Below, in pieces: positions 36,001 through 39,000 of a DNA stretch of 64,000 bases. Positions within the stretch are counted from its first letter, which is position 1. Every line of letters begins with the position of its first letter. The DNA is from Escherichia coli (GTDB lineage: Bacteria > Pseudomonadota > Gammaproteobacteria > Enterobacterales > Enterobacteriaceae), in assembly GCF_016026235.1 (NCBI RefSeq), contig NZ_CP065613.1. One strand, given 5' to 3'. The position numbers were made by a program.

Positions 36001-39000
36001 GAAAACGTTTCAAACAGGCTGCTGCCGTAGCCGATGCCGCTGCACTTTCTCGACATCCATGCACTGCAACGCCTTTGTCGGGCAGGCTTCAACACAGGCC
36101 GGCCCCGTCTCCCGATGCCAGCACAGATCGCACTTAATCGCCCTCGCCTTTTTGCGCGAAGAAACGACCTCCATCGCACCAAACGGGCAAGCCAGCATAC
36201 AGCTTTTACAGCCAATGCAACGTGTTTGTTCAACGAAAATATGCCCATGTTCGCGGCTTATCGCGTCAACAGGGCAGACATTCGCGCACGGTGCATCTTC
36301 ACACTGATGACAGGCTACTGCCGTGGTCCAGCTGTGGTCTTTAATGACACGAATACGGGAAATAAACTCGTCTGGTGACAACGCAGCGCAATCCTGATTC
36401 TCCTGATGCGACACTGCGCAAGCCACTTCACAGGTACGGCAACCGATACATTTCGTCGCATCCGCAATAATAAACCGGTTCATGATCACTCCTTTGCACT
36501 AAAACAGCAGAGTGCCAGAGAGCGCGTCCCTACTGCTTTGATCCAACGAAGGAAATGTTAAAGTTTTGGCACTTGTCCAAAGCGTTATGTGATCGCGCCC
36601 TGGTCGTCCCTGACAGTAAACCCCAGTTCATTAGAAATAGCCTGCGCGGTTTCACGCAGAGGTTTCAGGAGATTTTTCTCTCCCACCTGTTTCAGACGTG
36701 ATGTCGAAAGCGAAATCGACACGGCACTACGAATTGATATGTTCCTTGCTGTAACGCCGCTTCCACGCTGCTGGCGTTAAACCGGTGTGTTTGCGAAAAA
36801 TCTGCCGGAAATAGCCAACGTCATTAAACCCGCACAACGCCGCCACTTCCGTGAGCGATCGCGCTTCGCTAATTAACAGCTTTTCGGCTTCGCGCACCCG
36901 CTGGCGATGGATTGCTTCTGTTAACGTCAGATGAAACACCCACCGGTAGACGCGCCCAAGATAATCGGCATTGCAGTACAGCTCGCGGGCCAGAAGCGCC
37001 GTAGAAAGCGGGCGATGATATTGCGTGCGGATCAGTTTCTGCGCTTTCCAGGCAAGGGTGGTGCCTGCGCCATCGGCCTGTTCATCAAGACGCGCGTCAC
37101 GGGTGAGCTGCTGCAAAATGAGCAGCACAATAAACTCCAGCGCCGGAGTGCGTTGATGCTTTTCCTGTTCGCTTAAGAACTGGCGAAACAGGGCCACCAG
37201 CGCCTGCGGATCGACAACCTTCGTTTGTTGCGGCACGCTAAGATGAGTAAGCCAGCGAGGGTCGTTGTCCGGCGCTTTAACCTCAAAATGCAGCCAGTAA
37301 AATTTGAGATCGGCGGGAAAATCCTCCACCCCAACATGTTGTCGGTTCGGCCAGAGTAATAAACTCTCTCCCGCATCGACCAGAAATATCCGTTCTTCTT
37401 CCTGAATCGTTAATCGACCTTTTTCGACAAAGATAATTTCCCATGACTCCAGCCGCCTTGCAGGATGCCTCCCTACGCCACGGGAAATAAATAATCCACC
37501 ATTTTGCACTTTAATCGGTAACGTCATGGATAATTCGAGCATTGATATGTAATTTCCCGCTTATTCATTAATGATTAAACACATTACCTTTTGATTATTA
37601 ATCAAAAATATTAATTTCACCTGATCCATTTCACACTTTTAAATTCAGGTCGGAATCGTCACCTTTTTTTACTCTTTTCTCGCCTTGTTGATATTCCCGT
37701 TCACGGCAGAATTAATCAGGTCATTTCAATAAAACTAAAAATTGCTCCCTATTCACGAGGAATATCTATGACCTCTACACCGATTACTACCGCTGATATC
37801 GCTAAAGGTAAAATTGACGATGCGTTATCTGTACGGGAAAAAATAGGCTACGGCCTGGGTGACGCAGGCGGCACCGTAATAACTTGCCTGATCATGAATT
37901 TTCTCACCTTTTTCTACACCGACGTTTTTGGATTAACTCCGGCGCTGGTTGGCACGCTGTTTATTGCACTGCGCGTGTTTGATGCCATCTCCGACCCGGT
38001 GATGGGCGTCATTGCCGACCGGACGCAAAGTCGCTGGGGGCGCTTTCGCCCGTGGCAGCTATGGATTGCCATTCCCATCGGCATTATCGGCATCCTGACG
38101 TTCACCGTGCCAGATGCCAGCATGGGAGTAAAAATCGCCTGGGCGTTCGGTACTTACCTGCTCCTTTCAGTCGGTTATACCGCCATCAACGTACCGTACT
38201 GCGCGCTGATCAACACCATGACCACCCGCCACAATGAAGTGATCTCCTGCCAGTCCTGGCGATTCGTTCTCTGTGGCGTAGCGGGATTTCTGGTTTCGGT
38301 AGGCTTACCGTGGATGGTAGATCTCTTCGGTCAGGGTAATGCCGCGCGCGGCTATCAATTGGGCGTCGGCGTGCTGTGCGCCATTGCCGTGGTGATGTTC
38401 CTGTGCTGTTTTTTCTGGGTTCGTGAACGGGTGCCACTCTCCACAATGGGGAAATTTACCCTGCGCGAACATCTTGCCGAGCTGCGGAACAACGACCAAC
38501 TGCTGCTGATGCTGGTCATGTCTTTCCTGCTGATTAACGTCTTTAACATTCGCGGCGGTGGGTATATGTACTTCATTACCTACGTCTTACAAGGCAGTAC
38601 GGGCTACACGTCGCTGTTCTTCACCATGGTCACCTTCGCCTCCATTATCGGCTCGGTGATTGTCAGCCCGTTAACGCGGCGTTTCGATACCGTCAAAATT
38701 TACTACTACACCAACCTGCTCCTCGCTGCGCTGGCGGTGTTGATGTGGTTCCTGCCCTCCGGCCCGGCTTATCAAACGCTGTGGCTGGCGGTGATCCTCG
38801 GTAATGGCGTAATTCTTGGCTTCACATTGCCACTGCACTTCTCATTGATGGCCTTTGCCGATGACTACGGCGAGTGGAAAACCCGCGTACGTTCTTCCGG
38901 CATGAACTTCGCCTTCAATCTGTTTTTCATCAAGCTGGCCTGGGCCTCCAGCGCCGGGATCATCAGCCTGCTGTTTATTTTTGTCGCCTACCAGCCAGGC

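What the first reader, a model, noticed from the sequence alone, without database searches (positions are those of the whole stretch)
36585..36725. Possible scar of the replaced locus: 46-codon orphan frame resembling an IclR-type regulator C-terminus
Immediately downstream of the AraC-like gene, in a different frame on the minus strand, 46 sense codons (...LKQVGEKNLLKPLRETAQAISNELGFTVRDDQGAIT*) run to a stop with no start codon or RBS. K-12 has the IclR-family yiaJ gene adjacent to ysaA. A retained yiaJ 3' end would pinpoint the left recombination junction of the cassette.
Basis: inference. Interest (0 to 1): 0.35.

Follow-up and report, generated by a model that had tools for sequence, protein, structure and literature searches.

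The report
Leftover yiaJ/plaR tail marking a deletion
The 46-codon orphan frame is the leftover tail of the E. coli regulator gene yiaJ (plaR), marking a common, already-annotated 9-kb deletion of the neighbouring sugar-acid operon, not the edge of an inserted gene cassette.

Summary
Window 36585-36725 (minus strand) is the last 46 codons plus stop of yiaJ/plaR, matching K-12 MG1655 b3574 at 137/141 nt and 45/46 aa, and it sits next to ysaA as in K-12. NCBI's PGAP pipeline already annotates it as a partial IclR pseudogene.

The "replaced locus / cassette junction" reading is wrong. The AraC-MFS-GH127 genes are native neighbours of the yiaK-sgbE operon. 1,893 of 5,426 complete E. coli genomes carry ysaA-yiaJ-yiaK...sgbE-AraC-MFS-GH127-yiaT intact, and K-12 keeps remnants of the AraC and GH127 genes as ysaC and ysaD.

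The window differs from the intact arrangement by one clean 8,987-bp deletion (MG1655 3,741,825-3,750,811). Both ends lie in an imperfect 11-bp direct repeat, ATCGnCnCGGC. The right copy forms the 3' arm of a GC-rich hairpin between sgbE and the AraC gene.

426 genomes carry this deletion, as two junction alleles that differ only at the two mismatched repeat positions. 77 have the window's allele and 349 have the EDL933/Sakai allele. Both alleles share one AraC-side haplotype.

This is an ordinary, known pseudogene scar of low interest.

The parts
36585..36725 (-). 3' remnant of yiaJ/plaR: codons 237-282 plus the TAA stop. It is a pseudogene fragment lacking the N-terminal DNA-binding domain and most of the effector domain.
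   Evidence: PGAP annotates it as 'IclR family transcriptional regulator, incomplete, missing N-terminus'.
36715..36725 (.). Hybrid copy of the 11-bp imperfect direct repeat (ATCGACACGGC) at the deletion junction. The perfect 4-bp microhomology CGGC is at 36722-36725, and the crossover in this allele lies within it. Positions 36719 and 36721 are A here and C in the alternative allele.
36490..36584 (-). Retained yiaJ-ysaA intergenic spacer, identical to K-12. It contains a weak terminator-like hairpin plus a U-tract at 36501-36539.
   Evidence: The terminator role is inferred only.
36010..36483 (-). ysaA (4Fe-4S protein), the unaffected left neighbour.
36727..37542 (-). Intact AraC-family regulator gene. 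K-12 pseudogene ysaC is its 3' 102 bp. Its native downstream hairpin was removed by the deletion.
37768..39168 (+). MFS_2 (GPH-type) sugar transporter gene, part of the native three-gene cluster.
39179..41158 (+). Glycoside hydrolase family 127 gene. K-12 pseudogene ysaD is an internal remnant of it (window 40853-41041, 89.4% identity).

Best explanation
The fragment is a non-functional scar, the last 141 bp of yiaJ/plaR. It was left by a single 8,987-bp deletion from an ancestral arrangement ysaA-yiaJ-yiaKLMNO-lyxK-sgbHUE-[hairpin]-AraC-MFS-GH127-yiaT. The deletion joined two copies of an imperfect 11-bp direct repeat. One copy is ATCGACACGGC inside yiaJ at codons 236-239. The other is ATCGCCCCGGC, which forms the 3' arm of the GC-rich hairpin between sgbE and the AraC gene. 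One hybrid copy remains and no extra bases were added. This is the signature of short-homology deletion, by replication slippage/template switching or by single-strand annealing; that step is inferred, and the hairpin may have helped. The deletion removed the regulator's first 236 codons and all nine operon genes. The strain therefore lacks both PlaR and the 2,3-diketo-L-gulonate/L-xylulose pathway, while the AraC-MFS-GH127 cluster stays intact. AraC-gene transcripts now run into the yiaJ remnant in place of their own hairpin (inferred).
For: Identity with yiaJ is shown.

The undeleted arrangement, with every gene intact, is seen in strains 18SZHZ655Rt, TUM13881 and 1919D62. It is counted in 1,893 of 5,426 genomes, which agrees with 2,313 genomes holding the full three-gene cluster minus 426 holding the junction.

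The window is collinear with the undeleted L006 from 31715 to 55157 except for one gap, L006 5013-13999.

The repeat at both endpoints and the hybrid at the junction are read directly. The right repeat lies in a 9-bp-stem hairpin (-25.1 kcal/mol for the 51-nt stretch, z=-3.4).

The two junction alleles differ only at the repeat's two mismatch positions, and 77 + 349 = 426, so the 11-mer is implicated as the substrate.

Each arrangement keeps truncated remains of genes that are intact in the full form: yiaJ' here, ysaC/ysaD in K-12. The full form is therefore ancestral.

No Rfam match was found. PGAP marks the piece as a pseudogene in every junction-bearing genome fetched.
Against: Nothing contradicts the deletion reading. 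Several points remain open. The molecular route (slippage or annealing; RecA-dependent or not) cannot be determined from sequence. The perfect microhomology is only 4 bp. All four combinations of near-left haplotype and junction allele exist, so the history includes recombination or more than one event. A GTG at 36722, five bases after the AraC stop, leaves a formal possibility of coupled translation in this allele.
Confidence: 0.93

Rival explanations
1. One reading: an AraC-MFS-GH127 cassette replaced the yiaJ-sgbE locus by recombination, and the yiaJ tail marks the cassette's left junction.
For: K-12-type and window-type genomes look like alternative occupants of one site if only those two are compared.
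Against: 1,893 genomes hold both gene sets side by side. The AraC gene's 3' end and the bases just beyond it are identical in sequence and position downstream of sgbE in undeleted genomes. K-12 holds remnants of the 'cassette'. The right side is collinear with undeleted genomes, so there is no second junction. The cluster contains no mobility genes.
Confidence: 0.03
2. The remnant is a functional small gene: a 45-aa peptide started at GTG 36722 by translational coupling to the AraC gene's stop codon five bases upstream.
For: the ORF listing reports a GTG-initiated 45-aa ORF, and the stop-to-start spacing suits re-initiation.
Against: There is no Shine-Dalgarno sequence. In 349 of the 426 junction-bearing genomes the GTG codon is GGG, so no start exists there. 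Forty-five residues cover only 32 of the 174 IclR_C profile positions and are unlikely to fold alone. PGAP flags it as a pseudogene everywhere.
Confidence: 0.03
3. The deletion was made by an insertion sequence, for example an IS1-mediated adjacent deletion. IS1 is active in this region of related genomes.
For: IS1 copies and IS1-bounded truncations lie nearby in FDAARGOS_943, C9 and strain 1283, and an IS1 lies at window 21898-22669.
Against: The junction holds no IS sequence, no IS end and no extra bases. It is a precise fusion within a shared short repeat. An IS-mediated adjacent deletion would leave the IS at the junction.
Confidence: 0.02

Closest known systems
plaR (yiaJ, b3574) of E. 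coli K-12, the IclR-family repressor of the yiaK-S operon (Shimada et al. 2019, PMC6958661)
   Same: The fragment is orthologous DNA: 137/141 nt and 45/46 aa over residues 237-282. It has the same position and orientation next to ysaA, and the downstream spacer is identical.
   Different: Only 16% of the gene remains. The DNA-binding domain, most of the effector domain, the promoter and the start codon are gone, so it cannot act as a regulator.
The same partial IclR pseudogene annotated in E. coli O157:H7 EDL933/Sakai, O55:H7, O145:H28 and others
   Same: Same 141-bp remnant, same deletion and same neighbours.
   Different: Those 349 genomes carry the other junction allele (C at 36719 and 36721; crossover in or before ATCG, not in CGGC). 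In them codons 238-239 read Gly-Ala instead of Val-Ser, and there is no GTG.
ysaC and ysaD pseudogenes of K-12 MG1655 (b4648, b4649)
   Same: They are scars of the same kind in the same ancestral region, left by deletion inside the neighbouring AraC-MFS-GH127 cluster.
   Different: The K-12 lineage lost the other half of the region: about 4.0 kb from inside the AraC gene to inside GH127, plus about 210 bp further on. It kept yiaJ-sgbE. The ysaD remnant is much more diverged (89.4%).
Short-homology (microhomology) deletions between direct repeats in bacteria, by replication slippage or single-strand annealing and often near hairpins (general knowledge)
   Same: Both endpoints carry a short direct repeat. 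One hybrid copy is retained, no filler DNA is present, and one endpoint lies in a hairpin arm.
   Different: The repeat is imperfect (9/11), and two hybrid versions of it survive in the population. The mechanism itself was not tested.

Membership tests
IclR-family transcriptional regulator (functional member) | N-terminal winged helix-turn-helix DNA-binding domain | tested here: not met
   The fragment starts at YiaJ residue 237 of 282. Pfam finds only an IclR_C tail and no HTH domain.
IclR-family transcriptional regulator (functional member) | Complete C-terminal effector-binding domain (IclR_C, 174 profile positions) | tested here: not met
   Only profile positions 143-174 are matched, at 24.0 bits against a cut-off of 24.
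IclR-family transcriptional regulator (functional member) | Intact ORF with its own start codon and ribosome-binding site | tested here: not met
   There is no ATG and no Shine-Dalgarno sequence. The GTG at 36722 is allele-specific and absent in 349 of 426 genomes.
Ortholog remnant (pseudogene) of K-12 plaR/yiaJ | High nucleotide identity to the plaR 3' end in the same frame, ending at the same stop codon | tested here: met
   137/141 nt and 45/46 aa, with the same TAA stop. The fragment with its spacer is about 98% identical to yiaJ across roughly 5,000 genomes.
Ortholog remnant (pseudogene) of K-12 plaR/yiaJ | Conserved synteny: directly upstream of ysaA, same orientation, same spacer | tested here: met
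   The 95-bp spacer is identical to K-12, with ysaA-avtA-malS to the left.
Short-homology (direct-repeat) deletion | Both flanks are contiguous with a longer intact allele, and the difference is one uninterrupted gap | tested here: met
   Two BLAST segments against L006 abut and overlap by 11 bp. The gap is 8,987 bp, and the window is collinear elsewhere from 31715 to 55157.
Short-homology (direct-repeat) deletion | A short direct repeat at both endpoints of the intact allele, with one copy left at the junction and no filler bases | tested here: met
   ATCGACACGGC (yiaJ) and ATCGCCCCGGC (sgbE-AraC spacer) are both present in L006, L005, L004 and K-12. One hybrid copy is present in the window.
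Short-homology (direct-repeat) deletion | Independence from RecA, IS elements and site-specific recombinases | not testable with these tools
   No IS or att sequence is present at the junction. Enzyme dependence needs genetics.
   1,893 genomes have both, with examples. K-12 has remnants.
   There is only one junction, and the right side is collinear with undeleted genomes. The cluster encodes only an AraC regulator, an MFS transporter and GH127.

The most novel reading that the evidence does not exclude
The two junction alleles (77 genomes with A/A, 349 with C/C at 36719 and 36721) may be sister products of one annealing event between the imperfect 11-mers, whose two-mismatch heteroduplex went unrepaired and segregated at the next replication. 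Alternatively, the hairpin-adjacent 11-mer is a true deletion hot spot that fired at least twice in one haplotype. Either reading would make this a natural, population-scale record of how a short-homology deletion was resolved.
Probability: 0.35. Interest if true: 0.2.

Novelty: already known. Interest (0 to 1): 0.08.

Why it matters
It matters little beyond correct annotation. The result fixes the evolutionary reading of this much-compared region, the O157:H7 versus K-12 'island' difference. It is not an exchange of cassettes. Two independent losses occurred from one larger ancestral sugar-utilisation region that about 35% of sequenced E. coli still carry whole.

There is a practical consequence. 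The 426 strains with this scar, including O157:H7, O55:H7 and O145:H28, lack PlaR. PlaR was reported to bind about 18 targets for using plant-derived nutrients in K-12 (PMC6958661), so any PlaR-dependent regulation outside the deleted operon would be lost in them. This is an inference and was not tested.

The exact junction is also a simple PCR or sequence marker, and its two alleles add resolution.

Tried and rejected
1. Cassette replacement was rejected once complete genomes holding both gene sets were found.

2. An IS-mediated origin was rejected because the junction is a clean fusion with no IS sequence.

3. A known RNA element in or around the fragment: there was no Rfam match at E<=1 over 36300-37900.

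4. Promoter/terminator scan: the counts were at shuffle background. The only minus-strand terminator-like site inside the fragment (36660-36641) is ordinary yiaJ coding sequence. The hairpin plus U-tract at 36501-36539 is weak.

5. Single versus multiple origin. The right flank over 1,175 bp shows 0-3 differences among 10 of 13 deleted genomes, across both alleles. The closest undeleted genome found, 1919D62, shows 8 differences from the deleted-type haplotype over the same stretch, which favours common ancestry. On the left, all four combinations of haplotype and junction allele occur, so recombination or recurrence cannot be excluded. This is unresolved with 13 sampled genomes.

6. L278Q as a sign of decay was rejected. 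The same variant is present in intact yiaJ alleles such as L004.

7. Literature searches found no paper describing this junction. They confirmed the ysaC/ysaD gene order and the PlaR renaming.

Full report
**Observation**

On the minus strand, window 36725-36588 reads 46 sense codons, AVSISLSTSRLKQVGEKNLLKPLRETAQAISNELGFTVRDDQGAIT, followed by TAA at 36587-36585. The frame begins two bases after the TAG stop (36729-36727) of a 271-aa AraC-family gene and is in a different frame. No ATG or Shine-Dalgarno sequence precedes it. There is a GTG at codon 2 (36722), which is why ORF listing reports a 45-aa ORF.

**Identity**

- Pfam places the peptide on the last 32 positions (143-174 of 174) of IclR_C (E=3.1e-5, 24.0 bits, at the cut-off).
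- BLASTP against an intact YiaJ gives 45/46 identities over residues 237-282.
137 of 141 nt match the 3' end of plaR (= yiaJ, b3574). The only amino-acid difference is L278Q. The 95-bp spacer down to ysaA is identical.
- The L278Q variant also occurs in intact yiaJ alleles, so it is standing polymorphism and not decay.
- Megablast of 36490-36760 finds the left 236 bases inside intact yiaJ at about 98% identity in about 5,000 genomes.
- PGAP annotates the 141 bp as 'IclR family transcriptional regulator, incomplete, missing N-terminus' in every junction-bearing genome fetched, including O157:H7 EDL933.

**What the surroundings show**

That is not supported.

- Strains 18SZHZ655Rt (L006), TUM13881 (L005) and 1919D62 (L018) carry ysaA-yiaJ-yiaK-yiaL-yiaM-yiaN-yiaO-lyxK-sgbH-sgbU-sgbE, followed directly by the same AraC, MFS and GH127 genes. 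In L006 and L018 yiaT comes next.
- A probe across the undeleted sgbE-AraC adjacency is covered at 80% or more in 1,893 of 5,426 complete genomes. This matches the 2,313 genomes with the full three-gene cluster minus the 426 with the yiaJ'-AraC junction.
- K-12-type genomes carry, between sgbE and yiaT, a 102-bp AraC 3' remnant fused to a 189-bp internal GH127 remnant. In MG1655 these are the pseudogenes ysaC (b4648; window 36727-36828, 96%) and ysaD (b4649; window 40853-41041, 89.4%). A strain table in PMC12361893 gives the same order, yiaS-ysaC...ysaD-yiaT.

A truncated gene can only descend from an intact one. The full arrangement is therefore ancestral to both the K-12 type and the window type.

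**The junction**

Against L006, the window aligns as two segments: 36400-36725 to L006 4687-5012, and 36715-37000 to L006 13989-14274. They overlap by 11 bases. Elsewhere the window is collinear with L006 from 31715 to 55157. Read base by base:

| Source | Sequence around the breakpoint |
|---|---|
| yiaJ side | ...GCGAAATCGACACGGC\|GTACGG... |
| sgbE-AraC spacer | ...GCTTCATCGCCCCGGC\|ACTACG... |
| window | ...GCGAAATCGACACGGC\|ACTACG... |

- The endpoints share an imperfect 11-mer, ATCGnCnCGGC (9/11), with perfect CGGC at the junction (36722-36725).
- No bases were added.
- The missing segment is 8,987 bp: L006 5013-13999, equivalent to MG1655 3,741,825-3,750,811.
- It removes plaR codons 1-236 and all of yiaK through sgbE.
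- The right-hand repeat is the 3' arm of a hairpin with a 9-bp stem, whose core is GCCGGGGC-TTCATC-GCCCCGGC (-25.1 kcal/mol for the 51-nt stretch folded, z=-3.4). This hairpin sits between the convergent sgbE and AraC genes. The deletion removed it.

**Two junction alleles**

Strain JNEC-KY204 (L011) has C, not A, at 36719 and 36721, which is the sgbE-side version of the repeat. Its crossover therefore lies in or before ATCG. Allele-specific 40-bp probes count 77 genomes with the window's allele and 349 with the other, which together make all 426. The C/C allele is the one in EDL933, Sakai, O55:H7 and O145:H28. Because the alleles differ exactly and only at the repeat's two mismatch positions, the 11-mer is the likely recombination substrate. 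In the C/C allele, codons 238-239 read Gly-Ala and there is no GTG. This argues against a conserved small ORF.

**One origin or several**

- Over 1,175 bp to the right of the junction, 10 of 13 sampled deleted genomes show 0-3 differences from one another. Some pairs with different junction alleles are identical (L011 = L012 = L016).
- Undeleted L005 and L006 differ from that haplotype at 23 and 16 sites.
- A chimeric probe (undeleted sgbE end plus the window's AraC haplotype) finds no closer undeleted genome among the 1,893 than 1919D62, which has 7 mismatches in 800; most have 11.
- In 1919D62, both the yiaJ 3' end and the AraC flank match type-A deleted genomes such as 88-3493 and 14EC033. 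It looks like a surviving progenitor haplotype.
- This favours common ancestry of both alleles. However, within 236 bp to the left, all four combinations of near-flank haplotype and junction allele occur. Later recombination or a second event must therefore be invoked.
- I cannot separate three possibilities: one annealing event whose mismatched heteroduplex segregated into both alleles, two slippage events in one lineage, or later short conversion tracts.

**How it works**

- Shown: the fragment is a promoterless piece of plaR with no start codon of its own, and it lacks the DNA-binding domain.
- Inferred: it has no function. The deletion arose by short-homology joining (replication slippage/template switching or single-strand annealing), possibly favoured by the hairpin.
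- Consequences: the strain has lost PlaR and the 2,3-diketo-L-gulonate/L-xylulose genes. PlaR was reported to bind about 18 K-12 targets linked to plant-derived nutrients (PMC6958661), so regulation of any such targets outside the operon would also be lost (inferred).
- The AraC gene has lost its own downstream hairpin. Its transcripts must run into the yiaJ remnant and may stop at a weak hairpin plus U-tract at 36501-36539 or continue into ysaA (inferred only).
- No Rfam family matches the region. The promoter/terminator scan is at background.

**Comparison and verdict**

The fragment is an ortholog remnant of plaR/yiaJ, not a functional IclR-family member: the DNA-binding domain, a full effector domain and an own start were each tested and not met. 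The event fits the class of direct-repeat, short-homology deletions; enzyme dependence is untestable here. It fails every test for a replacement cassette. It is already annotated in hundreds of public genomes, including the first O157:H7 sequences. It is known and ordinary. The only mildly new details are the base-level mechanism and the two junction alleles.

Noticed in passing
window 36727-36828 and 40853-41041: K-12 MG1655 pseudogenes ysaC (b4648) and ysaD (b4649) are remnants of this window's intact AraC-family and GH127 genes, at 96% and 89.4% identity. The K-12 scar involves two deletions: about 4.0 kb (36831-40851) and about 210 bp (41042-41251).
   Followed up: yes
L006:13968-13999 (absent from the window; it would lie at the 36725/36726 junction): A GC-rich hairpin with a 9-bp stem (core GCCGGGGC-TTCATC-GCCCCGGC) lies between the convergent sgbE and AraC genes, with no U-tract on either strand. 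The deletion's right endpoint is its 3' arm, so deleted strains lack it.
   Followed up: partly
L018:1589-2422 (strain 1919D62): The undeleted genome whose flanks best match the deleted haplotype has its own lesion in yiaJ. A 2-bp deletion near the 3' end shifts the frame at about codon 279, and PGAP marks the gene as partial.
   Followed up: partly
L008:3042-3857; L010:4083-4931; L005:16453-18422: The AraC-MFS-GH127 cluster is itself often damaged. The AraC gene has an internal stop in strain L73, IS1 is inserted in the MFS gene in strain C9, and GH127 is frameshifted in TUM13881.
   Followed up: no
window 21291-22669: An IS1 copy (21898-22669, 99.9% identical to the IS1 in FDAARGOS_943) lies near a stretch (21291-21601) that FDAARGOS_943 annotates as a truncated yiaA/yiaB-family gene. 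At the yiaJ locus the window is 100% identical to FDAARGOS_943, but it keeps yiaT-yiaY (41528-47830), which that strain lost next to another IS1.
   Followed up: partly
window 36501-36539 (-): A terminator-like hairpin followed by UUUU lies between the yiaJ stop and the ysaA ribosome-binding site. It is weak (-16.6 kcal/mol, z=-1.9). It is the only candidate stop signal left for AraC-gene transcripts.
   Followed up: partly
hits H215-H217 (E. coli B derivatives BLR(DE3), BLK9, BLK16): Laboratory E. coli B strains carry the undeleted sgbE-hairpin-AraC adjacency. They are convenient hosts for testing the deletion mechanism.
   Followed up: no
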